64,000 nt of DNA from contig AE017150.2 in the NCBI GenBank assembly GCA_000002445.1, positions 704,001 through 768,000 on the forward strand, given 5' to 3'. The notes under the pieces were generated by a model, which was not told where the DNA came from, did no database searches, and saw nothing but the letters and a program-made list of their open reading frames with translations. This DNA is from Trypanosoma brucei (Eukaryota). Every line of letters starts with the position of its first letter. The stretch's first letter is position 1. The position numbers and the translations under genes are program-made. Below are positions 30,512 to 64,000 of the stretch, in pieces.

Positions 30512-30514
<3 letters not shown>

Positions 30515-30548
<34 letters not shown>
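30515..30548. repeat. (AT)17 dinucleotide microsatellite inside a 3.6-kb AT-rich intergenic region.
   Basis: Directly visible: atatatat... over 34 bp, flanked by poly(A)/(GA)-rich sequence. Confidence 0.95.
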
Positions 30549-30552
<4 letters not shown>

Positions 30553-35800: not shown

Positions 35801-35968
35801 AACTTTCACCGCAACCGGCTGTCGTCTGACTCCACCAGCCTTTGGCGTACCGAAGCAGTAATACACCTTGGAGAAGTTTCCACATCCAACCTCCTCCAAA
35901 ACCTCAAAGCGGTTGTCAATCAAATCGCCGGCGCTTAGCTTCAGATGTTCACCCTTCGAGGGTGACAT
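32855..35968 (-). CDS. CMGC-group serine/threonine protein kinase, LAMMER/CLK-like, with a roughly 700-aa S/T/P-rich low-complexity C-terminal extension.
   Basis: ATG confirmed at 35968. Kinase motifs present: glycine loop VGCGNFSKV, VAVK lysine, HTDLKPENILL catalytic loop, DFGSS, and APE (RPYRAPEVVLG). The LAMMER-like helix reads 'THLQLMERCLGPLP'. The kinase domain is N-terminal and the remainder is serine/threonine/proline-rich. Confidence 0.8.
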   Translation of the reverse strand: MSPSKGEHLKLSAGDLIDNRFEVLEEVGCGNFSKVYYCFGTPKAGGVRRQPVAVKVVKKEYKNDAYFEQEMLQILSQKKNGRASVCQMLEFFEWKGYPVFVMKIYGPSLRERRLGYANGVVTREKVVQVAHSLLETCRFIHIDCRMVHTDLKPENILLENITTSKSSIGDNWVVCDFGSSSLWRMDHLDSDLITTRPYRAPEVVLGNPWYHPADMWSVGCIIFELAIGRRLFDVRDDLTHLQLMERCLGPLPDLFRRRSKNSRSFFDQNGNFLRDCDDVILGRMRSRTLAELLPGDTELCDLIASMLVYDPESRATAEEALKHRIFKQPFILSNSTASNKRSNTPARGGNPIKKLATPRATSSIRVKAIVGSGNAKEAQNGQPAVRIPVCDKVTPTSSHNKSIDGDGATDTKWSRPIENVNRNFCEPAHAPGLPALEQPTSTRHPSLSTVCGKSVTDSKHISQQPMEVETAYDRKPFETSVAMLQSSKSNTSSVVISSVPSFTKEGERKKGRNGPVATLRSGTDCDQSSPQNTLVELLPTTPSAEAGSQPGMTSSPGRQADVSCGSNPSPVIAHPTKTIPTKEKECVRESHKELSISRDLECVPPSKRTTYGKETVGALHEYQLGTGAGTDVNAEASPTSTEGALTTFGKTPTDAAEAYERLASSTPSTMKGKESSKRKQREPVSMRSPSKPGHVSATVFDTGRMVTEAPFPPHCSTVVEPRGDSSTNKGVPAPFLLSGEAYFVAFPHVGGPVVHTSNETILPNIAKDQRHHLAPFTPRQQQQRRYEPKTLRSPPPASVGQPTLQRINTVYATTSGNKMFPNEMYGRGDAGRPSNRQSSTPTTTQGRSSTVSASEVGRNSRQNSTSLSESCKNLYQLSRLQAVPAFKAKDHPSPPQQVAYVTGKRRIVNSNSQVSVSVSAQGSTGSSAKAPRKSVGAKEMPGDTHGNRQSITGSRDVRRRVVSSYSTVNEGNIRRKGTSAQQDNMDERVNLITGNIADFIGISSARGKTKPSMEGGSNYHPAHIPYPPSSEAHGKRK

Positions 35969-39767: not shown

Positions 39768-42700
39768 TCACGAGACCGCATTGGCTGAACGAGACCTTTT
39801 CCTTGTGCTACGTATGTCCATGACTTGCCGTACCTGTCGCTGTGTTTGTTCAGTGATTCTGGAATGATGTGATGACTCAACGGACAAGCTCACCCTCTCT
39901 CTGGTGGTTCTTCCTGCACCTAGCACAGGTGACCCCCGAATTTGCTGTTCCGGTGGGCTGCTGTGTTGTGCCACTTCTGATGACACACGACCACCATAGG
40001 TTACAACCCTTGTCTTGGCATATCGAAGCTCGTCCTCCAGACCTTTCTTATCGCCCTGCAACTTCTGAACTGCGCTTTCAAGTTGTAAGGTCTTCCTTGA
40101 TGCATTCTCCGCATCTTGTGCCGCCTTGGCCGCATCTTGTTCATACTGGTCAAGTTGTTCGTCCTTCTGTACAAGCTCATCCTGCAGCCGTTGAACCTCC
40201 TCATCCTTTCGTTGTAGAGCTTTTTCAAGGAACGTAACGCGCGCCTGCGACATGCGAATACGCGCTTCATCCCCCTCCACAACGGCCTTTTGACGAGAGG
40301 AACCGCTTTGCCGTTTTGGGGAACCACTCGTCGATGCAACCTCCTCGCGGAGTGTTTGCACCTGAGCCTCCATCAGACTGAATGCTTTCGCCAGTTCCTC
40401 AGCTTGCTGCCTGGCCGCAAGTTCACCCTCACGTTTCGATGCCTCCAGTGCGGAGAGTTTATTGCGGCTCGCTTGCAACTGTGCGGAGAGCGAGTTGTTC
40501 TGCTGTTTCAACCGACTAACTTCCTCACCTCGCTCACGACCAAGTTCATCGACCCTCTCGGTGAGAGTACGACGCTCAGCTATGAGTTCTTCACGTTGCT
40601 GACGCATTTCCACCAACTGTTGACGAATTTCATCTAAATCTTCCAGATACGCATTTGACTGCGACGAATTCTGTTCCAATGACAAGAGAAGTTCCTCTTG
40701 ATTGGATTCCAACTGACGGCAAGTTTTTCGGCAGAGCATTAGATCTGCGTGAAGGCTTGATATTTGTAGAAACTGGGCGAGATCTACAGCCTCTAAGTCC
40801 ACCGGTTCCGCCCCCACAGAACTCACATCAACGGAACCATCCACACCTAATACACTGTGCGCGCCACGAACGTCCTTTGCCCGAACAAATTGTTCCAACC
40901 GCTGGCACTCCTTCTGCAATTTAACTACTTCCAGACATTTTCTTTCCAAATCTTGCTCTAGCCGAACATTGCGCTCCTCCAACCTCCTCCTCGCATCATT
41001 AGAGCGATCAACGGATCTTCTTGCGACAATAAGTTCCGTCACGCAACCCTCACTCCTACGGTCATAAAATTCTTCAAAACCACGCTTCGTAGCGGAAACT
41101 TGAGCATGAAGTTCATCCACAACCCGAGACAACCTCTCAACATCTGCACCAACAGCACCATCACTATCCCCCACTTTACCATTCAAAGAAGAAACACTAT
41201 CCACAAGCAAACGATTACTAACCAAAACTTCATCTTTTAAAAAAGATATTTCCTCAACACTCCTCTCCAGCTTCTCCTTTGCTGTACGGAGTTCCTCCTC
41301 AAGTGTAGAAACACGTTCCTCCATCTCAGTTGCCTTTTCTAAAGCAGCTTCCCGTTCCTCAGCAAGTCGCTCAAGTGCTACTAAAGCAGATGCCAATTGT
41401 GTACCAAGATCCGTATCAGCATTCCTTACAGCAACATCAGACACAAGAGCAGCTCGTGCATTGCCATCCTTGTCAGACTGTGAGGTGCGTACACGAACTC
41501 CAGCGGCATTCAACTTATTCGTTAGCTGTATGATCTCTTCTTCTGCTTCACGAAGACGTTGTTGCGTGTGTTGCAATTCTGTTGTGAAAGCTGCCACAGT
41601 TTGTTCAGGTGTTGTACCGTAACTCTCCAAACGGGAAACAGTTTCCTCAAGTTGCGTAAGTTTTGTCACATGTAGCTCACGTTCTGCAGACATTTTCTTC
41701 GTGGTTGAGTGCGCTGTACGGAGTTCCTCCTCAAGTGTAGAAACACGTTCCTCCATCTCAGTTGCCTTTTCTAAAGCAGCTTCCCGTTCCTCAGCAAGTC
41801 GCTCAAGTGCTACTAAAGCAGATGCCAATTGTGTACCAAGATCTGTATCAGCATTCCTTACAGCAACATCAGACACAAGAGCAGCTCGTGCATTGCCATC
41901 CTTGTCAGACTGTGAGGTGCGTACACGAACTCCAGCGGCATTCAACTTATTCGTTAGCTGTATGATCTCTTCCTCTGCTTCACGAAGACGTTGTTGCGTG
42001 TGTTGCAATTCTGTTGTGAAAGCTGCCACAGTTTGTTCAGGTGTTGTACCGTAACTCTCCAAACGGGAAACAGTTTCCTCAAGTTGCGTAAGTTTTGTCA
42101 CATGTAGCTCACGTTCTGCAGACATTTTCTTCGTGGTTGAGTGCGCTGTACGGAGTTCCTCCTCAAGTGTAGAAACACGTTCCTCCATCTCAGTTGCCTT
42201 TTCTAAAGCAGCTTCCCGTTCCTCAGCAAGTCGCTCAAGTGCTACTAAAGCAGATGCCAATTGTGTACCAAGATCCGTATCAGCATTCCTTACAGCAACA
42301 TCAGACACAAGAGCAGCTCGTGCATTGCCATCCTTGTCAGACTGTGAGGTGCGTACACGAACTCCAGCGGCATTCAACTTATTCGTTAGCTGTATGATCT
42401 CTTCTTCTGCTTCACGAAGACGTTGTTGCGTGTGTTGCAATTCTGTTGTGAAAGCTGCCACAGTTTGTTCAGGTGTTGTACCGTAACTCTCCAAACGGGA
42501 AACAGTTTCCTCAAGTTGCGTAAGTTTTGTCACATGTAGCTCACGTTCTGCAGACATTTTCTTCGTGGTTGAGTGCGCTGTACGGAGTTCCTCCTCAAGT
42601 GTAGAAACACGTTCCTCCATCTCAGTTGCCTTTTCTAAAGCAGCTTCCCGTTCCTCAGCAAGTCGCTCAAGTGCTACTAAAGCAGATGCCAATTGTGTAC

Positions 42701-45700
42701 CAAGATCCGTATCAGCATTCCTTACAGCAACATCAGACACAAGAGCAGCTCGTGCATTGCCATCCTTGTCAGACTGTGAGGTGCGTACACGAACTCCAGC
42801 GGCATTCAACTTATTCGTTAGCTGTATGATCTCTTCTTCTGCTTCACGAAGACGTTGTTGCGTGTGTTGCAATTCTGTTGTGAAAGCTGCCACAGTTTGT
42901 TCAGGTGTTGTACCGTAACTCTCCAAACGGGAAACAGTTTCCTCAAGTTGCGTAAGTTTTGTCACATGTAGCTCACGTTCTGCAGACATTTTCTTCGTGG
43001 TTGAGTGCGCTGTACGGAGTTCCTCCTCAAGTGTAGAAACACGTTCCTCCATCTCAGTTGCCTTTTCTAAAGCAGCTTCCCGTTCCTCAGCAAGTCGCTC
43101 AAGTGCTACTAAAGCAGATGCCAATTGTGTACCAAGATCTGTATCAGCATTCCTTACAGCAACATCAGACACAAGAGCAGCTCGTGCATTGCCATCCTTG
43201 TCAGACTGTGAGGTGCGTACACGAACTCCAGCGGCATTCAACTTATTCGTTAGCTGTATGATCTCTTCTTCTGCTTCACGAAGACGTTGTTGCGTGTGTT
43301 GCAATTCTGTTGTGAAAGCTGCCACAGTTTGTTCAGGTGTTGTACCGTAACTCTCCAAACGGGAAACAGTTTCCTCAAGTTGCGTAAGTTTTGTCACATG
43401 TAGCTCACGTTCTGCAGACATTTTCTTCGTGGTTGAGTGCGCTGTACGGAGTTCCTCCTCAAGTGTAGAAACACGTTCCTCCATCTCAGTTGCCTTTTCT
43501 AAAGCAGCTTCCCGTTCCTCAGCAAGTCGCTCAAGTGCTACTAAAGCAGATGCCAATTGTGTACCAAGATCCGTATCAGCATTCCTTACAGCAACATCAG
43601 ACACAAGAGCAGCTCGTGCATTGCCATCCTTGTCAGACTGTGAGGTGCGTACACGAACTCCAGCGGCATTCAACTTATTCGTTAGCTGTATGATCTCTTC
43701 CTCTGCTTCACGAAGACGTTGTTGCGTGTGTTGCAATTCTGTTGTGAAAGCTGCCACAGTTTGTTCAGGTGTTGTACCGTAACTCTCCAAACGGGAAACA
43801 GTTTCCTCAAGTTGCGTAAGTTTTGTCACATGTAGCTCACGTTCTGCAGACATTTTCTTCGTGGTTGAGTGCGCTGTACGGAGTTCCTCCTCAAGTGTAG
43901 AAACACGTTCCTCCATCTCAGTTGCCTTTTCTAAAGCAGCTTCCCGTTCCTCAGCAAGTCGCTCAAGTGCTACTAAAGCAGATGCCAATTGTGTACCAAG
44001 ATCTGTATCAGCATTCCTTACAGCAACATCAGACACAAGAGCAGCTCGTGCATTGCCATCCTTGTCAGACTGTGAGGTGCGTACACGAACTCCAGCGGCA
44101 TTCAACTTATTCGTTAGCTGTATGATCTCTTCCTCTGCTTCACGAAGACGTTGTTGCGTGTGTTGCAATTCTGTTGTGAAAGCTGCCACAGTTTGTTCAG
44201 GTGTTGTACCGTAACTCTCCAAACGGGAAACAGTTTCCTCAAGTTGCGTAAGTTTTGTCACATGTAGCTCACGTTCTGCAGACATTTTCTTCGTGGTTGA
44301 GTGCGCTGTACGGAGTTCCTCCTCAAGTGTAGAAACACGTTCCTCCATCTCAGTTGCCTTTTCTAAAGCAGCTTCCCGTTCCTCAGCAAGTCGCTCAAGT
44401 GCTACTAAAGCAGATGCCAATTGTGTACCAAGATCCGTATCAGCATTCCTTACAGCAACATCAGACACAAGAGCAGCTCGTGCATTGCCATCCTTGTCAG
44501 ACTGTGAGGTGCGTACACGAACTCCAGCGGCATTCAACTTATTCGTTAGCTGTATGATCTCTTCTTCTGCTTCACGAAGACGTTGTTGCGTGTGTTGCAA
44601 TTCTGTTGTGAAAGCTGCCACAGTTTGTTCAGGTGTTGTACCGTAACTCTCCAAACGGGAAACAGTTTCCTCAAGTTGCGTAAGTTTTGTCACATGTAGC
44701 TCACGTTCTGCAGACATTTTCTTCGTGGTTGAGTGCGCTGTACGGAGTTCCTCCTCAAGTGTAGAAACACGTTCCTCCATCTCAGTTGCCTTTTCTAAAG
44801 CAGCTTCCCGTTCCTCAGCAAGTCGCTCAAGTGCTACTAAAGCAGATGCCAATTGTGTACCAAGATCCGTATCAGCATTCCTTACAGCAACATCAGACAC
44901 AAGAGCAGCTCGTGCATTGCCATCCTTGTCAGACTGTGAGGTGCGTACACGAACTCCAGCGGCATTCAACTTATTCGTTAGCTGTATGATCTCTTCTTCT
45001 GCTTCACGAAGACGTTGTTGCGTGTGTTGCAATTCTGTTGTGAAAGCTGCCACAGTTTGTTCAGGTGTTGTACCGTAACTCTCCAAACGGGAAACAGTTT
45101 CCTCAAGTTGCGTAAGTTTTGTCACATGTAGCTCACGTTCTGCAGACATTTTCTTCGTGGTTGAGTGCGCTGTACGGAGTTCCTCCTCAAGTGTAGAAAC
45201 ACGTTCCTCCATCTCAGTTGCCTTTTCTAAAGCAGCTTCCCGTTCCTCAGCAAGTCGCTCAAGTGCTACTAAAGCAGATGCCAATTGTGTACCAAGATCT
45301 GTATCAGCATTCCTTACAGCAACATCAGACACAAGAGCAGCTCGTGCATTGCCATCCTTGTCAGACTGTGAGGTGCGTACACGAACTCCAGCGGCATTCA
45401 ACTTATTCGTTAGCTGTATGATCTCTTCCTCTGCTTCACGAAGACGTTGTTGCGTGTGTTGCAATTCTGTTGTGAAAGCTGCCACAGTTTGTTCAGGTGT
45501 TGTACCGTAACTCTCCAAACGGGAAACAGTTTCCTCAAGTTGCGTAAGTTTTGTCACATGTAGCTCACGTTCTGCAGACATTTTCTTCGTGGTTGAGTGC
45601 GCTGTACGGAGTTCCTCCTCAAGTGTAGAAACACGTTCCTCCATCTCAGTTGCCTTTTCTAAAGCAGCTTCCCGTTCCTCAGCAAGTCGCTCAAGTGCTA

Positions 45701-48700
45701 CTAAAGCAGATGCCAATTGTGTACCAAGATCCGTATCAGCATTCCTTACAGCAACATCAGACACAAGAGCAGCTCGTGCATTGCCATCCTTGTCAGACTG
45801 TGAGGTGCGTACACGAACTCCAGCGGCATTCAACTTATTCGTTAGCTGTATGATCTCTTCTTCTGCTTCACGAAGACGTTGTTGCGTGTGTTGCAATTCT
45901 GTTGTGAAAGCTGCCACAGTTTGTTCAGGTGTTGTACCGTAACTCTCCAAACGGGAAACAGTTTCCTCAAGTTGCGTAAGTTTTGTCACATGTAGCTCAC
46001 GTTCTGCAGACATTTTCTTCGTGGTTGAGTGCGCTGTACGGAGTTCCTCCTCAAGTGTAGAAACACGTTCCTCCATCTCAGTTGCCTTTTCTAAAGCAGC
46101 TTCCCGTTCCTCAGCAAGTCGCTCAAGTGCTACTAAAGCAGATGCCAATTGTGTACCAAGATCCGTATCAGCATTCCTTACAGCAACATCAGACACAAGA
46201 GCAGCTCGTGCATTGCCATCCTTGTCAGACTGTGAGGTGCGTACACGAACTCCAGCGGCATTCAACTTATTCGTTAGCTGTATGATCTCTTCCTCTGCTT
46301 CACGAAGACGTTGTTGCGTGTGTTGCAATTCTGTTGTGAAAGCTGCCACAGTTTGTTCAGGTGTTGTACCGTAACTCTCCAAACGGGAAACAGTTTCCTC
46401 AAGTTGCGTAAGTTTTGTCACATGTAGCTCACGTTCTGCAGACATTTTCTTCGTGGTTGAGTGCGCTGTACGGAGTTCCTCCTCAAGTGTAGAAACACGG
46501 TCCTCCATCTCAGTTGCCTTTTCTAAAGCAGCTTCCCGTTCCTCAGCAAGTCGCTCAAGTGCTACTAAAGCAGATGCCAATTGTGTACCAAGATCCGTAT
46601 CAGCATTCCTTACAGCAACATCAGACACAAGAGCAGCTCGTGCATTGCCATCCTTGTCAGACTGTGAGGTGCGTACACGAACTCCAGCGGCATTCAACTT
46701 ATTCGTTAGCTGTATGATCTCTTCCTCTGCTTCACGAAGACGTTGTTGCGTGTGTTGCAATTCTGTTGTGAAAGCTGCCACAGTTTGTTCAGGTGTTGTA
46801 CCGTAACTCTCCAAACGGGAAACAGTTTCCTTAAGTTGCGTAAGTTTTGTCACATGTAGCTCACGTTCTGCAGACATTTTCTTCGTGGTTGAGTGCGCTG
46901 TACGGAGTTCCTCCTCAAGTGTAGAAACACGTTCCTCCATCTCAGTTGCCTTTTCTAAAGCAGCTTCCCGTTCCTCAGCAAGTCGCTCAAGTGCTACTAA
47001 AGCAGATGCCAATTGTGTACCAAGATCCGTATCAGCATTCCTTACAGCAACATCAGACACAAGAGCAGCTCGTGCATTGCCATCCTTGTCAGACTGTGAG
47101 GTGCGTACACGAACTCCAGCGGCATTCAACTTATTCGTTAGCTGTATGATCTCTTCCTCTGCTTCACGAAGACGTTGTTGCGTGTGTTGCAATTCTGTTG
47201 TGAAAGCTGCCACAGTTTGTTCAGGTGTTGTACCGTAACTCTCCAAACGGGAAACAGTTTCCTCAAGTTGCGTAAGTTTTGTCACATGTAGCTCACGTTC
47301 TGCAGACATTTTCTTCGTGGTTGAGTGCGCTGTACGGAGTTCCTCCTCAAGTGTAGAAACACGTTCCTCCATCTCAGTTGCCTTTTCTAAAGCAGCTTCC
47401 CGTTCCTCAGCAAGTCGCTCAAGTGCTACTAAAGCAGATGCCAATTGTGTACCAAGATCCGTATCAGCATTCCTTACAGCAACATCAGACACAAGAGCAG
47501 CTCGTGCATTGCCATCCTTGTCAGACTGTGAGGTGCGTACACGAACTCCAGCGGCATTCAACTTATTCGTTAGCTGTATGATCTCTTGCTCTGCTTCACG
47601 AAGACGTTGTTGCGTGTGTTGCAATTCTGTTGTGAAAGCTGCCACAGTTTGTTCAGGTGTTGTACCGTAACTCTCCAAACGGGAAACAGTTTCCTCAAGT
47701 TGCGTAAGTTTTGTCACATGTAGCTCACGTTCTGCAGACATTTTCTTCGTGGTTGAGTGCGCTGTACGGAGTTCCTCCTCAAGTGTAGAAACACGTTCCT
47801 CCATCTCAGTTGCCTTTTCTAAAGCAGCTTCCCGTTCCTCAGCAAGTCGCTCAAGTGCTACTAAAGCAGATGCCAATTGTGTACCAAGATCCGTATCAGC
47901 ATTCCTTACAGCAACATCAGACACAAGAGCAGCTCGTGCATTGCCATCCTTGTCAGACTGTGAGGTGCGTACACGAACTCCAGCGGCATTCAACTTATTC
48001 GTTAGCTGTATGATCTCTTCCTCTGCTTCACGAAGACGTTGTTGCGTGTGTTGCAATTCTGTTGTGAAAGCTGCCACAGTTTGTTCAGGTGTTGTACCGT
48101 AACTCTCCAAACGGGAAACAGTTTCCTCAAGTTGCGTAAGTTTTGTCACATGTAGCTCACGTTCTGCAGACATTTTCTTCGTGGTTGAGTGCGCTGTACG
48201 GAGTTCCTCCTCAAGTGTAGAAACACGTTCCTCCATCTCAGTTGCCTTTTCTAAAGCAGCTTCCCGTTCCTCAGCAAGTCGCTCAAGTGCTACTAAAGCA
48301 GATGCCAATTGTGTACCAAGATCCGTATCAGCATTCCTTACAGCAACATCAGACACAAGAGCAGCTCGTGCATTGCCATCCTTGTCAGACTGTGAGGTGC
48401 GTACACGAACTCCAGCGGCATTCAACTTATTCGTTAGCTGTATGATCTCTTCCTCTGCTTCACGAAGACGTTGTTGCGTGTGTTGCAATTCTGTTGTGAA
48501 AGCTGCCACAGTTTGTTCAGGTGTTGTACCGTAACTCTCCAAACGGGAAACAGTTTCCTCAAGTTGCGTAAGTTTTGTCACATGTAGCTCACGTTCTGCA
48601 GACATTTTCTTCGTGGTTGAGTGCGCTGTACGGAGTTCCTCCTCAAGTGTAGAAACACGTTCCTCCATTTCAGTTGCTCTTGCTAGTGTAGCATCGTGCT

Positions 48701-50711
48701 GTTCTGCTAGCTGTGTTAGGGCTGCCAAGGCGGAGGATAACTGTGTTTTCAATCCGGCATTATATGTTCTCAGTGATCCTTCTGTATCATTTGGTGTTAA
48801 ACTTCCACTTCTTGTTGTACTTGTTGAGCGGCCCCGAGCTCCAGCCGCATTCAGCTTATTCGTTAGTTGCACGTTCTCTTCCCCTGCCTCGCGAAGGCAC
48901 TTCTGTGTGTGCTGCAGTTCCGTTTTCAGTGCTTCTATGACTTCTGTTAAACCTTCTTCTGTCATCTTGTGCTTGATTATGGCTTGTTCGTACTCGTCAT
49001 TTTGAGCTGACGACAATTCCTTGTTATTCCCTGTGGCATTGTGACCGCTATCGGCTTTTTGTGGTTGGTTTAGTTTCTCATGTTGCACATTTGCAGTAAT
49101 ATATTGCGAATCATTTCCTGACCTTGATGGCATCTGTGTCTCTCTTGTCACTAACTCTATTGATTCCTCTTTATTCCCGCCTTGTGGAATGTTCTTTTCA
49201 CCGCTTATGGAGCCTGATATTTGTATTTTTTCTCTGAGTTGATGATGAAAGTTGTTGATCACATAGCTATCTTCGGTGATCCTTTCTTGAGCAGTCTGCA
49301 GTTGGTTTTGTGTGTGGGAAAGGCTTTTCGTTAGTTCTGCAGCGTGTTCTCTCGATTTCTGAAGGGCGGCCTCTAGTTGCTGCTGAAGATTTTGGAGGTT
49401 AAATATTTCTTCGCTCGCTTTTTGGAGCAGGATGTCCTTCGCTTCTCCTTCCCTACGGAGCAAGAAGAACTGCTGTTGAAGTGTGTGCTGTTGTAGTTCC
49501 AGCATTCTGTACACTTCATCATCGTTGTTTGTATTTGTGTCTGTTTTGTTCTCGTCTGTTGTCTCCATTTGTGTGTCAGGTGCCCCACGTTGTACTGCTT
49601 GCTCAGTTTTGCGCTGTAGTAGTTGTGAAGTAAGATCCTCAATCGTCCTGTGCTGTTCGTCACACATTTCCTGCAATTGTTCCTTTTGCTCCTGCAGTGC
49701 GGTGTTTTGTTGGTGAAGGTTGTTTCGCGCTTGTATTGCTTCCCTAAGGCTTTCTTCGTAGTCTTCACGTTCTTTTCGAAGAAGCTGCTGTAGATCCGTT
49801 ATCTCTGTACGTGTCACCTGTAACAGGTACCTTGATTGCGCCAATTCCTCTTCATGACTCGTGTTTTCACTTTTCCCCATTTCTGCAGCGACAGCGTGGT
49901 GCCTAATACACTCACGTTCCCTTTCAAGCTCTTTAGTTAGCTCCAGAAGTTCTTCCTCAAGTTTTTTGTTCTTCTCTTCAAGCGCACTTATCTCTTGACG
50001 GCCAACATGTCGTTCACCTCCAGATGGGACATATTTGCCTTGTGAATTTACGGACACTAGCTTATCCCTAAGCTGTCGCACCTCCCCTTCCGATTCGTCA
50101 AGTTTTTGACGCAGTTCTTCGTTTTCTCGCTTGCAGCGGTATATTACGTCGTTGCATGCACTATGCTCGCGCAAAAGGCAATCAAAACGATGATTTTTGT
50201 CCTGCAACTCACGATGGAGGCGTGCAGCCTCATTTTTGTAGTCATCACGCAACTGATACGCACGGCTAAGGGTATTATGCACATGAGTCATATCTCCCTC
50301 CAAGCGATTTGTGTACTCCATGCGCTCCTCCTCTGACATGTCCGCCAAGCCCCGACGCCCAGCGAAGATGGTGGGGTGCATTCCCATAGGAGCAGTTTGT
50401 TTGGAGCTGAGAAGCGGCATTATGCTGGGTTCCTCACGTGACATGCCGACGAGTGCAGAATTAGTCAGCAACCCCGTAGGAGATGGTAAAGGATTGTTGA
50501 GACGAGGTATGGAATCCGTTGCGGCCAATCCTCGCACATTAATTGGTGCCGCCAGCCGCGGTGTGAGCAGCGGCGGTGTCTCATGTGTCAAACCTCCTTG
50601 GATGCTGCTGGCGCTTCGGTTGCTTCTCACATGCCCAATATTTTCGGGTGGTGGAGTCCACGTTCGTGTGAAGAAACCGGGGTACCGCCGTGCGTCCCCA
50701 GCAGAAAACAT
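39768..50711 (-). CDS. NUP-1: Giant coiled-coil protein of 3647 aa with about 17 tandem 144-aa repeats. It is consistent with the kinetoplastid lamin-like nucleoskeletal protein NUP-1.
   Basis: ATG confirmed at 50711. Heptad-rich E/L/R/K/Q composition runs throughout. A central array of near-identical 432-bp units encodes ...EERVSTLEEELRTAHSTTKKMSAERELHVTKLTQLEETVSRLESYGTTPEQTVAAFTTELQHTQQRLREAEEEIIQLTNKLNAAGVRVRTSQSDKDGNARAALVSDVAVRNADTDLGTQLASALVALERLAEEREAALEKATEM.... The size, the 144-aa period and the copy number match what I recall of the published description of T. brucei NUP-1. Confidence 0.75.
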   Translation of the reverse strand: MFSAGDARRYPGFFTRTWTPPPENIGHVRSNRSASSIQGGLTHETPPLLTPRLAAPINVRGLAATDSIPRLNNPLPSPTGLLTNSALVGMSREEPSIMPLLSSKQTAPMGMHPTIFAGRRGLADMSEEERMEYTNRLEGDMTHVHNTLSRAYQLRDDYKNEAARLHRELQDKNHRFDCLLREHSACNDVIYRCKRENEELRQKLDESEGEVRQLRDKLVSVNSQGKYVPSGGERHVGRQEISALEEKNKKLEEELLELTKELERERECIRHHAVAAEMGKSENTSHEEELAQSRYLLQVTRTEITDLQQLLRKEREDYEESLREAIQARNNLHQQNTALQEQKEQLQEMCDEQHRTIEDLTSQLLQRKTEQAVQRGAPDTQMETTDENKTDTNTNNDDEVYRMLELQQHTLQQQFFLLRREGEAKDILLQKASEEIFNLQNLQQQLEAALQKSREHAAELTKSLSHTQNQLQTAQERITEDSYVINNFHHQLREKIQISGSISGEKNIPQGGNKEESIELVTRETQMPSRSGNDSQYITANVQHEKLNQPQKADSGHNATGNNKELSSAQNDEYEQAIIKHKMTEEGLTEVIEALKTELQHTQKCLREAGEENVQLTNKLNAAGARGRSTSTTRSGSLTPNDTEGSLRTYNAGLKTQLSSALAALTQLAEQHDATLARATEMEERVSTLEEELRTAHSTTKKMSAERELHVTKLTQLEETVSRLESYGTTPEQTVAAFTTELQHTQQRLREAEEEIIQLTNKLNAAGVRVRTSQSDKDGNARAALVSDVAVRNADTDLGTQLASALVALERLAEEREAALEKATEMEERVSTLEEELRTAHSTTKKMSAERELHVTKLTQLEETVSRLESYGTTPEQTVAAFTTELQHTQQRLREAEEEIIQLTNKLNAAGVRVRTSQSDKDGNARAALVSDVAVRNADTDLGTQLASALVALERLAEEREAALEKATEMEERVSTLEEELRTAHSTTKKMSAERELHVTKLTQLEETVSRLESYGTTPEQTVAAFTTELQHTQQRLREAEQEIIQLTNKLNAAGVRVRTSQSDKDGNARAALVSDVAVRNADTDLGTQLASALVALERLAEEREAALEKATEMEERVSTLEEELRTAHSTTKKMSAERELHVTKLTQLEETVSRLESYGTTPEQTVAAFTTELQHTQQRLREAEEEIIQLTNKLNAAGVRVRTSQSDKDGNARAALVSDVAVRNADTDLGTQLASALVALERLAEEREAALEKATEMEERVSTLEEELRTAHSTTKKMSAERELHVTKLTQLKETVSRLESYGTTPEQTVAAFTTELQHTQQRLREAEEEIIQLTNKLNAAGVRVRTSQSDKDGNARAALVSDVAVRNADTDLGTQLASALVALERLAEEREAALEKATEMEDRVSTLEEELRTAHSTTKKMSAERELHVTKLTQLEETVSRLESYGTTPEQTVAAFTTELQHTQQRLREAEEEIIQLTNKLNAAGVRVRTSQSDKDGNARAALVSDVAVRNADTDLGTQLASALVALERLAEEREAALEKATEMEERVSTLEEELRTAHSTTKKMSAERELHVTKLTQLEETVSRLESYGTTPEQTVAAFTTELQHTQQRLREAEEEIIQLTNKLNAAGVRVRTSQSDKDGNARAALVSDVAVRNADTDLGTQLASALVALERLAEEREAALEKATEMEERVSTLEEELRTAHSTTKKMSAERELHVTKLTQLEETVSRLESYGTTPEQTVAAFTTELQHTQQRLREAEEEIIQLTNKLNAAGVRVRTSQSDKDGNARAALVSDVAVRNADTDLGTQLASALVALERLAEEREAALEKATEMEERVSTLEEELRTAHSTTKKMSAERELHVTKLTQLEETVSRLESYGTTPEQTVAAFTTELQHTQQRLREAEEEIIQLTNKLNAAGVRVRTSQSDKDGNARAALVSDVAVRNADTDLGTQLASALVALERLAEEREAALEKATEMEERVSTLEEELRTAHSTTKKMSAERELHVTKLTQLEETVSRLESYGTTPEQTVAAFTTELQHTQQRLREAEEEIIQLTNKLNAAGVRVRTSQSDKDGNARAALVSDVAVRNADTDLGTQLASALVALERLAEEREAALEKATEMEERVSTLEEELRTAHSTTKKMSAERELHVTKLTQLEETVSRLESYGTTPEQTVAAFTTELQHTQQRLREAEEEIIQLTNKLNAAGVRVRTSQSDKDGNARAALVSDVAVRNADTDLGTQLASALVALERLAEEREAALEKATEMEERVSTLEEELRTAHSTTKKMSAERELHVTKLTQLEETVSRLESYGTTPEQTVAAFTTELQHTQQRLREAEEEIIQLTNKLNAAGVRVRTSQSDKDGNARAALVSDVAVRNADTDLGTQLASALVALERLAEEREAALEKATEMEERVSTLEEELRTAHSTTKKMSAERELHVTKLTQLEETVSRLESYGTTPEQTVAAFTTELQHTQQRLREAEEEIIQLTNKLNAAGVRVRTSQSDKDGNARAALVSDVAVRNADTDLGTQLASALVALERLAEEREAALEKATEMEERVSTLEEELRTAHSTTKKMSAERELHVTKLTQLEETVSRLESYGTTPEQTVAAFTTELQHTQQRLREAEEEIIQLTNKLNAAGVRVRTSQSDKDGNARAALVSDVAVRNADTDLGTQLASALVALERLAEEREAALEKATEMEERVSTLEEELRTAHSTTKKMSAERELHVTKLTQLEETVSRLESYGTTPEQTVAAFTTELQHTQQRLREAEEEIIQLTNKLNAAGVRVRTSQSDKDGNARAALVSDVAVRNADTDLGTQLASALVALERLAEEREAALEKATEMEERVSTLEEELRTAHSTTKKMSAERELHVTKLTQLEETVSRLESYGTTPEQTVAAFTTELQHTQQRLREAEEEIIQLTNKLNAAGVRVRTSQSDKDGNARAALVSDVAVRNADTDLGTQLASALVALERLAEEREAALEKATEMEERVSTLEEELRTAHSTTKKMSAERELHVTKLTQLEETVSRLESYGTTPEQTVAAFTTELQHTQQRLREAEEEIIQLTNKLNAAGVRVRTSQSDKDGNARAALVSDVAVRNADTDLGTQLASALVALERLAEEREAALEKATEMEERVSTLEEELRTAKEKLERSVEEISFLKDEVLVSNRLLVDSVSSLNGKVGDSDGAVGADVERLSRVVDELHAQVSATKRGFEEFYDRRSEGCVTELIVARRSVDRSNDARRRLEERNVRLEQDLERKCLEVVKLQKECQRLEQFVRAKDVRGAHSVLGVDGSVDVSSVGAEPVDLEAVDLAQFLQISSLHADLMLCRKTCRQLESNQEELLLSLEQNSSQSNAYLEDLDEIRQQLVEMRQQREELIAERRTLTERVDELGRERGEEVSRLKQQNNSLSAQLQASRNKLSALEASKREGELAARQQAEELAKAFSLMEAQVQTLREEVASTSGSPKRQSGSSRQKAVVEGDEARIRMSQARVTFLEKALQRKDEEVQRLQDELVQKDEQLDQYEQDAAKAAQDAENASRKTLQLESAVQKLQGDKKGLEDELRYAKTRVVTYGGRVSSEVAQHSSPPEQQIRGSPVLGAGRTTRERVSLSVESSHHSRITEQTQRQVRQVMDIRSTRKRSRSANAVS
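41270..49000 (-). repeat. 432-bp tandem repeat array. About 17 near-identical copies span 41270-48700, and one diverged copy lies at about 48700-49000.
   Basis: Identical antisense ORFs recur at 41701 + n x 432 in the ORF track. The copies differ only at a few SNP positions, such as gatcCgtatc versus gatcTgtatc and ttcTtctgc versus ttcCtctgc. Confidence 0.95.
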
Positions 50712-53010: not shown

Positions 53011-55932
53011 AAATCACACAAACACCACGCACCTGATACGATTCTAGTTGTTGTTGCTTTTTTTTTTGAGTGATAATTCGATATGAGGAACTAAAGAGAG
53101 AAATATCAATGAAGTTTTAAATGGGATGTTTGTAGTTTCCGGTAATATGTGGTCCCTCTCTCACCCTTTTCCCCCGCTGTATGTATGTATGTATGTACGT
53201 GTTTGTGTTTGTCTACATGATTGTGAGAACATTCATTTGAGCATTAACGAACAATGAGAAATGGGGGTAAGGAGAGAATGATAACAACACAAGGGCAGTG
53301 AAATGGCAACACATCTTAAGACGATGTGCATGTGTGTGGTCCAATACCGATGAGGGATTTATATATATATTTTTTTACCGAATACAAAAATATAAACGGA
53401 GGCATATGCATGTGATGAGGTGTACGTATTCCCATATACACCTTATCACATGAAATGGGCAGCTTGTGTGAGCGTGTGAATAGCGGTAATAACTCACTTT
53501 AAGGGAAGTAGAGATGAAGGCAAGAGAAGGCGAAAAATCTGAATTCAACAGACACACGCCTGCATACAGTTAAGCTTGGCACATACATACACACATCGAA
53601 AGTATGACATATGTTTATGTATATATAAATATATATATTTATATTGGCCCCCTATGTATTGAAAACGCACTTCGCACACACACAAACAAACAAAACTCAA
53701 AAAAAAAACAGAAAAAGAAGCATCCGACGCCATAATTGGATAAATACGAAGAAGAAGAAGAAGAAAAAGGAAAACAACATATTCACACACCATTTACATC
53801 ATTTGCATCCCCTTCGTGCTCCGCATCCTCCTTTACGAGCAACACAAAAAAGGAGAGCAAAATATAAAAAAAAATGACCATCGCAATTTCTCTTCCCTTG
53901 TCTTATAATAATAATAATAAAGACTAATTAACTTTTCTCCATCATTCATTTTCTCACGTAACCGTACGAAACAAATCACAAAACCGAAACAACACAATTT
54001 TCCACACGTGGATCGAAAGATCCTTGCGGCCAACGAATACAGAACAACAAAAGTAACAACGCAACCAAAAGACGCTTAAAATAAATAATAATAATAATAA
54101 ATATTTTTGTTTACTTTTTATTTTATTTTTTTTTCGAAGAGAAAGCAAGGAGGAAGTGATAGGGAGAGGGGAGAAGGGAAAGAAAAAAAAACAAACAAAA
54201 CAAACAAACAAACAAACACCTTCTATGGGGTAGGGAAATTTACTAATTACATTATAATAATTTACAATTATAACACGGAATTAATGAAGAAACTTTTGGT
54301 TTTATTAAATACGTTTTTTTTCTTTTTTGCCTTGTTTCCTTCTGTATCCTTTTTTTTCTTTTCTTTTCGTCTTTGTTTTTATCTCTTTCTCTTTCTTTTT
54401 TTTTCCTTTTCTTTATTTGCAGAAGCTGACAATGTTGAGGTGAGGCAGTGTCAAAAAAGAGATGGTTAAAAACAAAAAGAAAAATAAACAAGAAAGGCTT
54501 ACATATTTATAATTTTGCTCCACCATTGGGCTTTCTCCAACCAACAAACAGGGGGGGAAAACAAATGTACATACATCATAAATGCGTATACATTTAGATA
54601 TAAATATAAATATATATATTTATGTTAGTGTGGATGTGGATGTGGGCATGTGTGTATATATGTATATAAATACTTTGTAAATTGAATGGAAAAAAAATTA
54701 GTGGACCAGCGACAAGGTAATAATAGTAATAATAATAATAATAATAATAAACAAAAAAGAAAAAGTGACAACAGTTTGGCAAACGTACAGTCGCGAAGAG
54801 TTTCTCTTACTTCATTTTTGCATATTTTTTTTTATAAAAAAAAAGAGAAGAAAAGAAAAGAAAGAAAAAAAAGACAAAGCAGTAAATGATAGTCGCCGGT
54901 AATAAAAGAGAAAGTTAAGGGTTTGGTGGACATAAAAAAAAAAAGTAAGAAAAAGAGAACTTAAAAATCAACAATAACAACAATAGGACAATTGCCTCAA
55001 ATACAAACAAGAATCACAAAAAAAAAAAGAAGAAGGGAGGATCAGGTAAGGTGGTAAGGAAAACAAATGGGAGGGAAAAGATATATAAAAAAGAAAAAAC
55101 TAAAGACACAAATAAAAACAAAAAAGTAATTAAAAAGTGGAAAAACTGTTTAGATTTTTGCCTACATATAAAAAGAATAGAAAAAGGAAAGCAGAAAGGT
55201 AAAATAATTCACAAAATGGTTTCAACATTACCGTGTGGCTGCTCAAAAAACAGAATAGTCAAACGCTGCTACCCCTTAGGGGTGGTAAATTATATATATA
55301 TATATATATAATGGGGGACTGCATATTTCATCCATTCCTTCTTCTTTAAAACAAAGTCAGAAAAAAAAAAAGAAGATTCATTTGTATCGGGCTGACAACT
55401 TTTCTTTCTTTTTTGTTTCTTCCTCTTCAGAAATTATTGGTGTTGCATCCCTTCTTCTCATGCCTTCTTTTCCCTATTTTTTCCCCTTGTGATTTGCACT
55501 TTTTCCCTTTTTTTTTCTTGATTGGTTGCCAGCAGCTTAGAAGGGGAAGAACATGGTACAAAAGTGTTTAGTTTTTTGTTCATTCGTTCAATAACATAAA
55601 TTTAAATACCGCAAAAAAAAAAACTTCTCTGTGTCTCGAACGGCGTAACGCCGTCTCCTCTTTTTTTTTTAAATTTTTTTCCTTTCATTTCACGCTCCCT
55701 CATTTATTATTATTAATTTTTTTTTTGATTCATCTCCGTCTTTCCGTAAACATTTGAATCGCCCTTCTCCCACGAATACGGAAGTGCCTTTGCTAATTGC
55801 AGCAGCAGCAGCATTTGGAGTGACCTTAAGGTCGACCAGCATATCAACAGAAATAATTTATCAATCAACCAGATACAAAACACAAACAAACACAAACAAA
55901 CACATATATATGTACAAACAAATATGATGGTT

Positions 55933-61110: not shown

Positions 61111-63399
61111 TCAATCATCTTCATCACAGGGTGCCACGTAGTTGATTGGGAACAACCCTGTGCGCTGGTTGCACACACCTTTCAACCAACCCTCTTCCTG
61201 AGCACGACTTACGCACACAATCACTTCCCCTTCATCAAACGTTAGCTCATCTGGTGCTCGCGCCTTGTATGGATACAAAGCGCGCAATGAACGTCCCTCG
61301 ACCCGCAGCACATCGTTTATGCCAAGCTGAACACCATGTGAGGCAGTACTTGCATCACCGCCAACTCCATCACCCATTTCTTCAAGTGAATTTCTGCGAG
61401 ATGAAACTAGATGAGACGGTTTAGCAGACAGTGTAGCAGCTGCACGATCAGGCTCCTCACCGCCAGCGCCATGTGTGCCAGGAACCTTTTGATGTCCTGG
61501 AAGGGGATGCGTTACTGCCTTGGGGTACGATGCCGATGGGGAACCTGCGGAAGGTGTGTCGTTGAGCCGACGATCTAAAAGAGCACCCACCTGACGCTGC
61601 AGTGGAGTTCGGTATTTGGCCTCAAGCATAGGAAGTTGAGTACGTCTGTAGGAGGCACGTTCGCTGTTCTCCTGCTCAATAGCAGCACGGATCTGTAAAA
61701 GTGTCTTTTCCTCTTCGACTTTCACCTTCTCATCAAACGTTGTAGACGGTGTTACCTTCTCACGGTAATCCAGAATAGTGGAGTGACGGTTCAAATTAAC
61801 CTTCTTCGCTATTTCGCTCGGGTGAACGTACTCTACGCCCGCAAAGCGGAGCGAGGAGAGTGTGGGCTCGATGTCCTCACTCGCTTTATCTAAATTCGCA
61901 CGAATAGCCACAATTTGATGCCCTAGTTCCCTTCGTTTTAGCAGCAGTATTTTGTTTGCCTCGACGTACTTCTTAGCATTGACATCTAAGGATTCAGTAT
62001 GTAGTTCCTTCTTTATTTCGTTGTCCCGTATCTCCTCATCCAATTGCATCAGGCGCCGCTCCTTGCGATAGAGGTACCGACTTGCGGCGAGGTAATAATC
62101 CGAGTAGCGTTTGAAGTGATGGCTCTGTATCGCACGAAGCATCTCACTGAATGTGTTCTGCCGCTTGTCGACCTTGGATGCGATAGTGTCACAACCATCA
62201 AGAACAAAGTTATTCAATGATGTGGCGAGATCCTTAGCCTTTATTGCATTAGTAACAATATTCTGCAACTTCTGAGCATGTTCCGATACCGCTTTGAGAA
62301 ACGACTCGTGGCCGCTTCGACGTCCAGCCTCTCGCTCTTCCATCTGAAGTCGCCGTTCAATTTCTTTACGGCGCTTCTGTGCCAGCTTCGAAAGCTCGAC
62401 TTGGCACTGCTGCATTTCCCTAGCCAGTTCGAACATACGATTCCACACACCCTGCTGCTGCTCCCTATTTTTCTGAAGAAATTCGTCAGACAGACCACGA
62501 TCCGTTTCGTAACGTTTACGTTGATGTGTATCATCGTTGTTGTAATTCTCAATCTGTTCCTTTATCTTTAAAAGATCTTCTTCGCATGCTTCGATTTGTC
62601 TGTTTTTTCCTTCAATCACCGCTGTGATATCTTTATCAGCCATACGAAATATGGCCCAGCGCTGTCGCCTATCATTCACGCGAGATTCGACGTAATGATT
62701 TGTAATGATGGGATATTGATCGGTAATAAGCTGGAGAATGCGTTCGTATATCTTAAGCTGCCTCTCGGAAATCTCCTCCGCTAGAGCCATTTCACCGTTG
62801 GAAATACTCGCTTCAAGCAGTTGCTCACATTTGTCAACATCAGGGGAAAGAACTTCAATGGTATTTTGAAACTCGGCGAGCGAGCCCAGCAAACTGCGCG
62901 CATTGCTGCCCTCGCGTAGTTTAACTCGGAGGGCATTTGAAATGAACCCCAACTCACGCGGCTCAAACACAACACTACTAAGCTCGGCTTCGCACTGTTC
63001 AATAAAGCGTTTCTGCTTCGGGGTGATGAAGGGTTGCGTTTTGAGCAGTTGAAGAGAAGAAACTGCGTGAACCACTTCGGGGATAGTCGCATGCTGTTCC
63101 GTGTCCGCACCTGAAGAGGATATGTTCTTTACATCCAAGTGTAAGTTGCAGTGTTTAATAACTGTCTTGCTACACCAGTAATTACCAGACTCTACCGAAA
63201 TGTTCTGCTGAAGTTCAGCTAATTTTTGATCACAGATCTCAAACTGCAGGTCAAGTTCCGTAATAGTGGATTCAAGCCAGGAGATAACCTTCTCGTGAAA
63301 CGCCTCATCGGAGAGAATGTCCTTCAGTTTATCCTCCTCTTGTATATAAATGTGCTTGTTCCTCTGAAAGAGGGTAGTTGATTGAGCTGATTGCGTCAT
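61111..63399 (-). CDS. Coiled-coil protein of 762 aa with a C-terminal SH3 domain. It may be a paraflagellar-rod component of the PFR5 type.
   Basis: ATG confirmed at 63399. Most of the protein is predicted alpha-helical/coiled coil. The last roughly 60 aa, 'ALYPYKARAPDELTFDEGEVIVCVSRAQEEGWLKGVCNQRTGLFPINYVAPCDEDD', show the SH3 hallmarks ALYPY, DELTF, W-x-G and NYV. The paraflagellar-rod assignment rests only on my recollection that a trypanosome PFR protein on chr2 carries a C-terminal SH3. Confidence 0.7.
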   Translation of the reverse strand: MTQSAQSTTLFQRNKHIYIQEEDKLKDILSDEAFHEKVISWLESTITELDLQFEICDQKLAELQQNISVESGNYWCSKTVIKHCNLHLDVKNISSSGADTEQHATIPEVVHAVSSLQLLKTQPFITPKQKRFIEQCEAELSSVVFEPRELGFISNALRVKLREGSNARSLLGSLAEFQNTIEVLSPDVDKCEQLLEASISNGEMALAEEISERQLKIYERILQLITDQYPIITNHYVESRVNDRRQRWAIFRMADKDITAVIEGKNRQIEACEEDLLKIKEQIENYNNDDTHQRKRYETDRGLSDEFLQKNREQQQGVWNRMFELAREMQQCQVELSKLAQKRRKEIERRLQMEEREAGRRSGHESFLKAVSEHAQKLQNIVTNAIKAKDLATSLNNFVLDGCDTIASKVDKRQNTFSEMLRAIQSHHFKRYSDYYLAASRYLYRKERRLMQLDEEIRDNEIKKELHTESLDVNAKKYVEANKILLLKRRELGHQIVAIRANLDKASEDIEPTLSSLRFAGVEYVHPSEIAKKVNLNRHSTILDYREKVTPSTTFDEKVKVEEEKTLLQIRAAIEQENSERASYRRTQLPMLEAKYRTPLQRQVGALLDRRLNDTPSAGSPSASYPKAVTHPLPGHQKVPGTHGAGGEEPDRAAATLSAKPSHLVSSRRNSLEEMGDGVGGDASTASHGVQLGINDVLRVEGRSLRALYPYKARAPDELTFDEGEVIVCVSRAQEEGWLKGVCNQRTGLFPINYVAPCDEDD

Positions 63400-64000
63400 T
63401 TACCTGTTAGACTCTCTGTGCCTGTTGTTCTCTTTTCCTTCTGCCTTAATTTATTAGTAATATCTAATCCAAACGTATTTGATACACCCACTTGCTTCTA
63501 ACTATGACTTTTTCCCACCCCTTATATTGATTGTTCCCTTTTTCCTCTTCTTGTCTCTACTCTATTTCTTTTCTCATTGGAGTGAATAAACAGTATTTGA
63601 ATTATTTAAAAAAAACGTGTTCGAGGAGAGAAAAGTAGGGTAGTAGTTCCTTTTTGTTTTTTTTCCACCGTATGAAGAGTGAACAGAGTAAAAAAAAACC
63701 TGACACCAATAATGCACATGCACAAAACGGAGATAGGTACAACTTAACTGAATGCATCCTCTCGGTATATACATGCTTGTGTGAATTTTACTGTGTGAAC
63801 ACTAACAAGTTGCAAAAACGAAAGTAAACAAACAAAAAAATGACGAAACGTGGGTAGCAAGCAAAAGTTAAAATTACTGAGCGGCTAAGTCGCGAAATGA
63901 TGTCATCTTGAAAGCAGGGATCGCTCCCACTTGTTCACTTTCGTATGCTCCCCGCCATTAATAAGAGCGCCGAGTACTGTATCACTTAGATCGTTGAATG

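What the first reader, a model, noticed from the sequence alone, without database searches (positions are those of the whole stretch)
61111..63399. A C-terminal SH3 domain on a long coiled-coil protein
SH3 domains are uncommon in kinetoplastids. The last 60 residues of this 762-aa coiled-coil protein match the SH3 hallmarks ALYPY, DELTF, WLKG and NYV. Given the chromosomal neighbourhood, this may be the SH3-bearing paraflagellar-rod protein I recall under the name PFR5. That identification is from memory only.
Basis: partly seen in the sequence, partly recalled or inferred. Interest (0 to 1): 0.5.

Follow-up and report, generated by a model that had tools for sequence, protein, structure and literature searches.

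The report
Trypanosoma brucei PFR5 gene, already described

Summary
A 762-aa ORF occupies 61111..63399, but on the minus strand. Its last ~60 residues are a true SH3 domain (Pfam SH3_9 E=9.7e-14, SH3_1 E=2.8e-12; predicted fold TM 0.89, rmsd ~1 Å to solved SH3s).

The interpretation also holds. Residues 256-549 are a full-length Pfam Flagellar_rod domain (E=1e-105). The protein is 100% identical to T. brucei TREU927 XP_951628.1 on chromosome 2 and 61% identical end to end to T. cruzi 'PFR5' AAV28395.1.

Published work names Tb927.2.4330 as PFR5 and as the only PFR-family member with an SH3. It also reports PFR5 in the flagellar proteome, PFR2-dependent, a yeast two-hybrid hub (PFC3, PFC20, weakly PFC6), and PFR-localised in TrypTag (inner/middle domain group).

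What I add:
- The SH3 is the best-conserved segment (70% mean identity, against 12% for the linker).
- Its peptide-binding residues are essentially invariant across 30 kinetoplastid orthologues.
- The linker has no conserved PxxP, so the ligand is probably in trans.
- The PFR+SH3 architecture goes back at least to prokinetoplastids.

The SH3 ligand remains unknown. Novelty: already known. Interest: low.

The parts
61111..63399 (-). PFR5 coding sequence (762 codons plus stop at 61111..61113); Tb927.2.4330
   Evidence: ORF list; 100% identity to XP_951628.1; gene ID and name from PMC2645819 and PMC2813431
62635..63399 (-). N-terminal helical region, aa 1-255. It is conserved (55% mean identity) and, from about aa 68, homologous to the N-terminal part of PFR1/2-like proteins
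   Evidence: Conservation; helices in AF2 model; BLASTP to PFR1/2-like paralogue P0076 aligns aa 68-642 overall at 25% identity, credibly to ~560
61753..62634 (-). Pfam Flagellar_rod (PF05149) domain, aa 256-549: long helices, 35.7% charged residues
   Evidence: Pfam E=1e-105, full model length; helices H257-325, H333-400, H403-469, H474-519; composition
61582..61752 (-). Post-PFR-domain segment, aa 550-606, with two shorter, weakly conserved helices
   Evidence: AF2 DSSP H555-584 and H599-609; 25% mean identity over aa 550-620
61309..61581 (-). Disordered, fast-evolving linker, aa 607-697, rich in Gly/Ser/Ala/Pro. No PxxP or RxxK motif in T. brucei
   Evidence: pLDDT 30-35; 12% mean identity over aa 621-700, 45% G+S+A+P; motif scan in 30 orthologues
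61126..61293 (-). C-terminal SH3 domain, aa 703-758, with an intact canonical peptide-binding surface
   Evidence: Pfam SH3_9/SH3_1/SH3_2; PDB sequence hits; fold match TM 0.89; Y711, D717, E718, E735, W738, G748, P751 invariant in 30/30, N753 and Y754 in 29/30

Best explanation
The ORF is the Trypanosoma brucei gene for paraflagellar rod protein 5 (PFR5, Tb927.2.4330).

The first ~585 residues form a helical, heptad-rich body. It is homologous along most of its length to the major rod proteins PFR1/PFR2 and contains the Pfam PFR domain. This body builds the protein into the paraflagellar rod lattice (reported: PFR2-dependent, inner/middle domain group).

A disordered, rapidly evolving tether of about 90 residues then holds a canonical SH3 domain away from the lattice. 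The peptide-binding groove of that SH3 is intact and under strong purifying selection.

The most likely mode of action is a lattice-anchored adaptor: the SH3 docks a short linear (proline-type) motif of another PFR protein in trans. Candidates are the yeast two-hybrid partners PFC3, PFC20 and PFC6.

Shown here or in the literature: gene identity, domain architecture, SH3 fold and residue conservation, PFR localisation, PFR2 dependence, two-hybrid partners. Inferred: that the SH3 mediates any of those contacts, and the nature of its ligand.
For: Identity: 100% to XP_951628.1 on chr 2. 61% over 760 aa to T. cruzi PFR5 AAV28395.1, against only 25% to a PFR1/2-like paralogue. Gene name, 87 kDa mass and SH3 in PMC2645819 and PMC2813431; computed mass 87.14 kDa. 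Flanking PEPCK (Tb927.2.4210) and NUP-1 (Tb927.2.4230) lie in the expected order.

Architecture: Pfam PF05149 E=1e-105 plus SH3 E=1e-13. AF2 shows helices up to ~585, a linker with pLDDT ~31, and an SH3 with block-mean pLDDT 75-90. SH3 fold TM 0.89.

Functional SH3: it is the most conserved segment (70%, against 60% for the PFR domain and 12% for the linker). The residues matching the Grb2 N-SH3 peptide-binding positions Y7/F9/W36/P49/Y52 (mapping by alignment, plus textbook knowledge) are Y709 (Y or F in 29/30), Y711, W738, P751 (each 30/30) and Y754 (29/30). The RT-loop acidic pair D717/E718 is 30/30.

Ligand in trans: T. brucei PFR5 has no PxxP at all, and there is no conserved class I/II motif in the 30 orthologue linkers.

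PFR membership: loss from PFR2-RNAi flagella, log2 -1.42. TrypTag PFR proteome, inner/middle group, the same group as PFC3. Two-hybrid hub with PFC3 (reciprocal), PFC20 and weakly PFC6.
Against: No experiment links the SH3 to any partner; the two-hybrid work used full-length ORFs. PFR5 RNAi changed nothing in flagellar 2D-DiGE composition except PFR5 itself, so any SH3 client is low in abundance, redundantly anchored or not resolved on gels. I could not retrieve the partner sequences to look for SH3-binding motifs. The AF2 model as a whole is of modest quality (mean pLDDT 66.9, pTM 0.39), so the packing of the helices is not established.
Confidence: 0.85

Rival explanations
1. The SH3 is not a docking site inside the assembled rod. 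It acts earlier, in the cytoplasm or during intraflagellar transport, for example as a handle for an assembly or transport factor that delivers PFR5 or pre-assembled PFR subcomplexes. All lattice contacts, including PFC3, PFC20 and PFC6, are made by the helical body.
For: PFC3 is predicted to form extended coiled coils (PMC8277818), and coiled-coil proteins commonly pair through helices. PFR5 RNAi gives no loss of other PFR proteins. The SH3 is on a long flexible tether that would remain accessible before assembly.
Against: There is no data for any assembly-factor contact. The strong conservation of the SH3 groove fits either role, so this rival is not excluded, only unsupported.
Confidence: 0.1
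2. The SH3 binds PFR5 itself, either its own linker (auto-inhibition) or a neighbouring PFR5 molecule (head-to-tail polymerisation). It would then act as a structural cross-link rather than a recruiter.
For: The linker is Pro-enriched (8.8% P in aa 621-700), and some orthologues carry PxxP motifs there.
Against: T. brucei PFR5 has no PxxP anywhere. T. congolense, T. rangeli, T. cruzi and L. tarentolae linkers also have none. Class I/II motifs occur in only 3 of 30 linkers, with no conserved pattern. The two-hybrid screen reported self-interaction for PFC3 and PFC6 but not for PFR5.
Confidence: 0.04
3. The SH3 is a vestigial or purely structural fold with no peptide-binding function.
For: No ligand is known, and no RNAi composition phenotype was seen.
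Against: It is the most conserved part of the protein (70% mean identity), while the adjacent linker drifts to 12%. All canonical ligand-contact residues are invariant or nearly so from T. brucei to the prokinetoplastid Apiculatamorpha.
Confidence: 0.02

Closest known systems
T. cruzi PFR5 (AAV28395.1 / Q5XLF1; Clark et al. 2005, as cited in PMC2813431) and its annotated orthologues in Trypanosoma, Leishmania, Leptomonas, Novymonas, Phytomonas and Bodo
   Same: Same architecture (N-terminal helical region, PF05149, variable linker, C-terminal SH3). 61% identity over 760 residues. The SH3 sequence is nearly identical. This is the orthologue: the window gene IS T. brucei PFR5.
   Different: Only the linker differs substantially (length 97-184 aa across orthologues, 12% identity).
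PFR1/PFR2, the major paraflagellar rod proteins (PF05149 family)
   Same: Homologous helical body: 25% identity to a PFR1/2-like protein, aligned from aa 68 to beyond 560. Same Pfam domain. Located in the same structure.
   Different: PFR1/2-type proteins are ~600 aa and have no SH3. They are the abundant lattice builders, needed to assemble a complete rod (PMC8277818). PFR5 is a minor component whose knock-down changed no other protein in flagellar 2D-DiGE composition.
Adaptor-type SH3 domains of opisthokonts and amoebozoans (Grb2, OSTF1, cortactin, beta-PIX, myosin-I tail SH3)
   Same: Same fold (TM 0.82-0.91, rmsd ~1-1.6 Å, 32-45% identity). Same ALYDY-type motif, RT-loop acidic pair, conserved Trp and the P-x-N-Y motif near the C-terminus.
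   Different: The host protein is a kinetoplastid-specific flagellar lattice protein, not a signalling adaptor, actin regulator or myosin. Ligand class (PxxP, PxxxPR, RxxK) is undetermined.

Membership tests
Paraflagellar rod protein family (Pfam PF05149, Flagellar_rod) | Significant full-length match to the PF05149 model | tested here: met
   E=1e-105, 353.8 bits against a cut-off of 23.4; model positions 1-287 of 287, aa 256-549
Paraflagellar rod protein family (Pfam PF05149, Flagellar_rod) | Physical location in the paraflagellar rod | not testable with these tools
   Reported in the literature: reduced in PFR2-RNAi flagella; in the TrypTag-derived PFR proteome, inner/middle domain group
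PFR5 orthologue group | PFR domain combined with a C-terminal SH3, unique among PFR-family proteins | tested here: met
   Both domains found. The other full-length PFR5-type hits share it, while PFR1/2-like hits lack the SH3. Uniqueness stated in PMC2813431
PFR5 orthologue group | Closest similarity to the protein originally named PFR5 (T. cruzi), clearly above paralogues | tested here: met
   61% identity over 760 aa, 920 bits, to AAV28395.1, against 25% and 169 bits to a PFR1/2-like paralogue. In the profile search there is a gap between full-length PFR+SH3 hits (E<=3e-91) and paralogues (E>=4e-68, no SH3)
PFR5 orthologue group | Identity with gene model Tb927.2.4330 | tested here: met
   There was no direct accession-to-gene-ID table, so this rests on three indirect lines. 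(1) 100% identity to the T. brucei TREU927 chr-2 protein. (2) Published 87 kDa against 87.14 kDa computed; published PF05149+PF14604 architecture and 66.5% identity to its T. cruzi hit PWU99485.1, alongside 66% identity here to the 533-aa T. cruzi 'PFR5' P0033, which I take, without accession proof, to be that protein. (3) Flanking genes PEPCK Tb927.2.4210 and NUP-1 Tb927.2.4230 in the expected order
Canonical SH3 domain (PF00018 / PF14604 / PF07653) | HMM match above the curated threshold | tested here: met
   SH3_9 51.4 bits (cut-off 30), SH3_1 46.5 (22.9), SH3_2 32.4 (21.8)
Canonical SH3 domain (PF00018 / PF14604 / PF07653) | Five-stranded beta-barrel fold | tested here: met
   AF2 strands at 704-757, block-mean pLDDT 75-90 over aa 701-760; Foldseek TM 0.89, rmsd 1.0-1.1 Å to 1zlm and 2df6
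Canonical SH3 domain (PF00018 / PF14604 / PF07653) | Conserved peptide-binding residues (ALYDY tyrosines, RT-loop acidic residues, Trp, Pro and Tyr of the P-x-N-Y motif near the C-terminus) | tested here: met
   Y709 (Y/F in 29/30), Y711, D717, E718, W738, P751 (30/30), Y754 (29/30); aligned to Grb2 SH3s
Canonical SH3 domain (PF00018 / PF14604 / PF07653) | Actual binding of a proline-rich or related linear motif | not testable with these tools
   No ligand reported in the papers read; partner sequences could not be retrieved here

The most novel reading that the evidence does not exclude
The PFR5 SH3 is an ancient, dedicated docking socket, present already in the common ancestor of kinetoplastids. 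It tethers a specific regulatory or signalling client to the inner/middle zone of the rod, for example one of the kinases, calmodulin-related proteins or cAMP-pathway proteins mapped there. It may use a non-classical motif, since its closest solved relatives include the RxxK-binding Grb2-C/Gads/STAM group. Loss of that tether would then produce the kind of 'motility defect without ultrastructural change' recently described for other minor PFR proteins.
Probability: 0.25. Interest if true: 0.4.

Novelty: already known. Interest (0 to 1): 0.1.

Why it matters
It adds little as a discovery. The gene, its name, its SH3 domain, its PFR location and its two-hybrid partners have been published since 2005-2009 and were re-confirmed by TrypTag-based work in 2024.

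One question remains open: what does the SH3 bind? The paraflagellar rod is thought to be a platform for signalling and metabolic enzymes that tune motility. PFR5 is the only PFR-family protein with a recognisable modular docking domain, and that domain is the most strongly conserved part of the protein across Kinetoplastea. Identifying its ligand would give one concrete molecular link between the lattice and its cargo.

Tried and rejected
1. Plus-strand reading of the stated coordinates: full of stops; the gene is on the minus strand.
2. Looking for a solved structure of any PFR-domain protein. The profile search of PDB sequences returned only SH3-containing chains among the 60 best of 391 hits. 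Foldseek against PDB matched only the SH3 among the 50 best hits shown. No template for the helical body was found.
3. Intramolecular SH3 ligand: no PxxP or RxxK motif in T. brucei PFR5, and no conserved motif in the orthologue linkers. Rejected as the main mechanism.
4. A PFR gene cluster in the neighbourhood: the neighbours are unrelated housekeeping genes. The exception is a kinase ~25 kb away that is probably the PFR-proteome kinase Tb927.2.4200; I treat this as coincidence.
5. Literature search by Leishmania and T. cruzi gene IDs for knockout phenotypes: nothing functional on PFR5. A Lotmaria paper matched 'PFR5' outside its main text only.
6. Extension of the architecture beyond kinetoplastids. 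The profile search of 1.84 billion representatives found about ten full-length PFR+SH3 clusters. The named ones are kinetoplastid or prokinetoplastid (Apiculatamorpha), and the euglenid Ploeotia hit has a PFR domain but no SH3. The most distant PFR+SH3 protein (P0071, metagenomic) could not be assigned to an organism.
7. A genome-wide count of SH3 domains in T. brucei was not possible with these tools.

Full report
**1. Observation**

The coordinates 61111..63399 contain a single 762-aa ORF with an ATG start. It lies on the minus strand; the plus strand of the same interval is full of stop codons.

Pfam gives three overlapping SH3 models, all above their curated thresholds, over aa 706-758:
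- SH3_9: E=9.7e-14, 51.4 bits against a cut-off of 30.
- SH3_1: E=2.8e-12.
- SH3_2: E=7.4e-8.

The 70 C-terminal residues alone hit 320 distinct SH3 chains in the PDB at E<=1e-3. The best are the Grb2 SH3s at 1.6e-15.

An AlphaFold2 model built on 30 orthologues shows a five-strand barrel at 704-757, with block-mean pLDDT of 75-90 over residues 701-760. Foldseek superposes it on solved SH3 domains at TM 0.89-0.91 and rmsd about 1 Å. The SH3 is therefore real and far beyond chance.

**2. The rest of the protein**

- Residues 256-549 match the whole Pfam Flagellar_rod model (PF05149, positions 1-287 of 287, E=1e-105).
- BLASTP against a PFR1/2-like paralogue (P0076, 608 aa, no SH3) aligns from aa 68 to beyond 560 at 25% identity. 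Essentially the entire helical body is a diverged copy of the major rod-protein design, not just the Pfam core.
- The model is nearly all helix up to about residue 585, with five helices of 46-69 residues.
- A crude heptad test finds 4-6 times more windows with strong a/d hydrophobic periodicity than in shuffled sequence. 'Coiled-coil' is a fair, if untested, label.
- Residues 607-697 are predicted disordered (pLDDT about 31). The aa 621-700 segment is 45% Gly/Ser/Ala/Pro and almost unconserved (12% mean identity across 30 orthologues).

**3. Identity**

- The protein is 100% identical to T. brucei brucei TREU927 XP_951628.1 / Q586U8, 'paraflagellar rod protein, putative', on a 1,193,948-bp contig.
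- It is 61% identical over 760 aligned residues to T. cruzi AAV28395.1 / Q5XLF1, deposited as 'paraflagellar rod protein PFR5'.
- Portman et al. 2009 (PMC2645819) list Tb927.2.4330 as PFR5 with a PFR domain and, 'as previously reported', an SH3 domain.
[quoted passage not shown] The computed mass here is 87.14 kDa.
- The window's gene order agrees with chromosome 2: a protein kinase (probably Tb927.2.4200), PEPCK (Tb927.2.4210), a 3647-aa protein with 17 near-identical 432-bp repeats that fits NUP-1 (Tb927.2.4230), a YchF GTPase, a dual-specificity phosphatase, then PFR5.
- All genes are on the minus strand, as expected for a trypanosomatid polycistron.

**4. What is already known about PFR5 (from the papers read)**

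- It was found in the T. brucei flagellar proteome and belongs to the cohort lost from flagella when PFR2 is knocked down (iTRAQ log2 -1.42).
- In a two-hybrid screen of PFR components it is a hub. It binds PFC3 (reciprocally) and PFC20, and more weakly PFC6. RNAi of PFR5 followed by DiGE showed no compositional change other than loss of PFR5 itself (PMC2766642).
- Its abundance is constant through bloodstream-to-procyclic differentiation (PMC4765897).
- A 2024 preprint from the Sunter laboratory (10.1101/2024.04.19.590284) includes Tb927.2.4330 in a TrypTag-derived PFR proteome. It places PFR5 in the inner/middle domain group, with signal start 2.0 +/- 0.2 um from the kinetoplast, together with its partner PFC3.
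- Cryo-electron tomography of the rod has not resolved individual proteins (PMC8277818). No PFR-domain protein appeared among the best PDB sequence or fold matches.

**5. What this analysis adds**

(a) The SH3 is the most conserved segment of the protein. Mean identity is 70% across 30 orthologues, from T. brucei to Bodo-like organisms, Trypanoplasma and a prokinetoplastid. The comparison values are 60% for the PFR domain, 55% for the N-terminal region and 12% for the linker.

(b) The residues that contact peptide ligands in textbook SH3 domains are invariant or nearly so:
- Y711, D717, E718, E735, W738, G748 and P751: 30/30.
- N753 and Y754: 29/30.
- Y709: Y or F in 29/30.

This argues for a working peptide-binding groove.

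(c) T. brucei PFR5 contains no PxxP motif at all, and the linkers of the orthologues carry no conserved class I, class II or RxxK motif. An intramolecular or head-to-tail ligand is therefore unlikely, and the ligand should be in another protein.

(d) A profile search of 1.84 billion representative proteins found about ten 50%-identity clusters with the full PFR+SH3 architecture. After those came SH3-less PFR1/2-type proteins, and then generic multi-SH3 proteins.
- The named distant members include two paralogous copies in Apiculatamorpha spiralis (Prokinetoplastina). The fusion therefore predates the radiation of Kinetoplastea.
- A euglenid (Ploeotia) hit has the PFR domain without an SH3.
- The most divergent PFR+SH3 protein (P0071) is from an unassigned metagenome contig.

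**6. Mechanism**

The best-supported picture is a lattice-anchored adaptor. The PFR1/2-like helical body incorporates the protein into the rod. The disordered tether of about 90 residues gives the SH3 reach. The SH3 then captures a short linear motif on a partner.

- Shown: identity, architecture, fold, conservation, localisation, PFR2 dependence and the list of two-hybrid partners.
- Inferred: that the SH3 makes any of those contacts, and which motif it reads.

Rivals, in decreasing order of plausibility:
- The SH3 acts before assembly, as a transport or assembly-factor handle, while the helices make all lattice contacts. This is unsupported but not excluded.
- The SH3 binds PFR5 itself. This is disfavoured by the lack of motifs and by the absence of reported self-interaction.
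- The SH3 is vestigial. This is contradicted by its conservation.

**7. Comparison with the known, and verdict**

This is not merely like PFR5: it is T. brucei PFR5. Every defining feature I could test is met (see the membership table). Those I could not test, physical location and ligand binding, are either already reported (location) or remain open (ligand).

Novelty is 'already known'. The finding is a correct piece of annotation, not a discovery. The only open question with some interest is the ligand of the SH3.

Interest: 0.1.

Noticed in passing
window 39768..50711 (-), repeat array 41281..48677: A 3647-aa ORF carrying 17.1 tandem copies of a 432-bp (144-aa) unit at 99% identity. By position next to PEPCK, and from the literature (Tb927.2.4230 = NUP-1), this is the nuclear lamina-like protein NUP-1. 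Its Pfam hits are spurious low-complexity or coiled-coil matches.
   Followed up: partly
window 32855..35968 (-): A 1037-aa ORF with an N-terminal protein kinase domain, immediately before PEPCK. It is probably Tb927.2.4200, a CMGC/CLK kinase that the 2024 TrypTag-based study also lists in the PFR proteome. Two PFR-proteome genes would then lie ~25 kb apart. This is likely coincidence, and the mapping of the ORF to that gene ID was not verified by sequence.
   Followed up: partly
window 6848..10594 (-), with overlapping long ORFs at 8114..10189 (+), 8242..10182 (-), 8262..10247 (+): A 1248-aa ORF with histidine-rich and 'LED repeat' low-complexity hits and a sub-threshold C-terminal LIM match (E=3.4e-4). 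About 2 kb of it is open in several frames on both strands, which indicates a highly repetitive, compositionally biased coding region.
   Followed up: no
window ~29213..32854 and ~53011..55932: Two AT-rich stretches (GC 0.37-0.39, against ~0.47 elsewhere) with no ORF of 200 aa or more. These are unusually long inter-CDS regions (3-3.6 kb) for a trypanosome polycistron. They could be long UTRs or hold short genes or ncRNAs.
   Followed up: no
P0071 (JGI metagenome protein, 1029 aa; not in the window): The most divergent protein found with both a PFR domain (E=1.5e-26) and an SH3 (E=2.9e-11). It has extra N- and C-terminal extensions and is labelled 'DNA-binding FrmR family transcriptional regulator' by its source, which is a clear mis-annotation. 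Its source organism is unknown, so it might extend the PFR-SH3 fusion beyond known kinetoplastids.
   Followed up: partly
window 61111..63399 (-), aa 68-560 of PFR5: Homology to PFR1/2-type proteins begins at about aa 68 and runs past aa 560. This is much wider than the Pfam PF05149 boundaries (aa 256-549), so the Pfam model captures only the C-terminal half of the conserved PFR-family body.
   Followed up: partly
window 63400..63700 (-), upstream of the PFR5 ATG: Polypyrimidine tracts (for example around 63650-63600 and 63700-63690 on the minus strand), followed by AG dinucleotides, lie 200-300 nt upstream of the start codon. This fits a trans-splice acceptor region. The actual splice site was not determined.
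   Followed up: no
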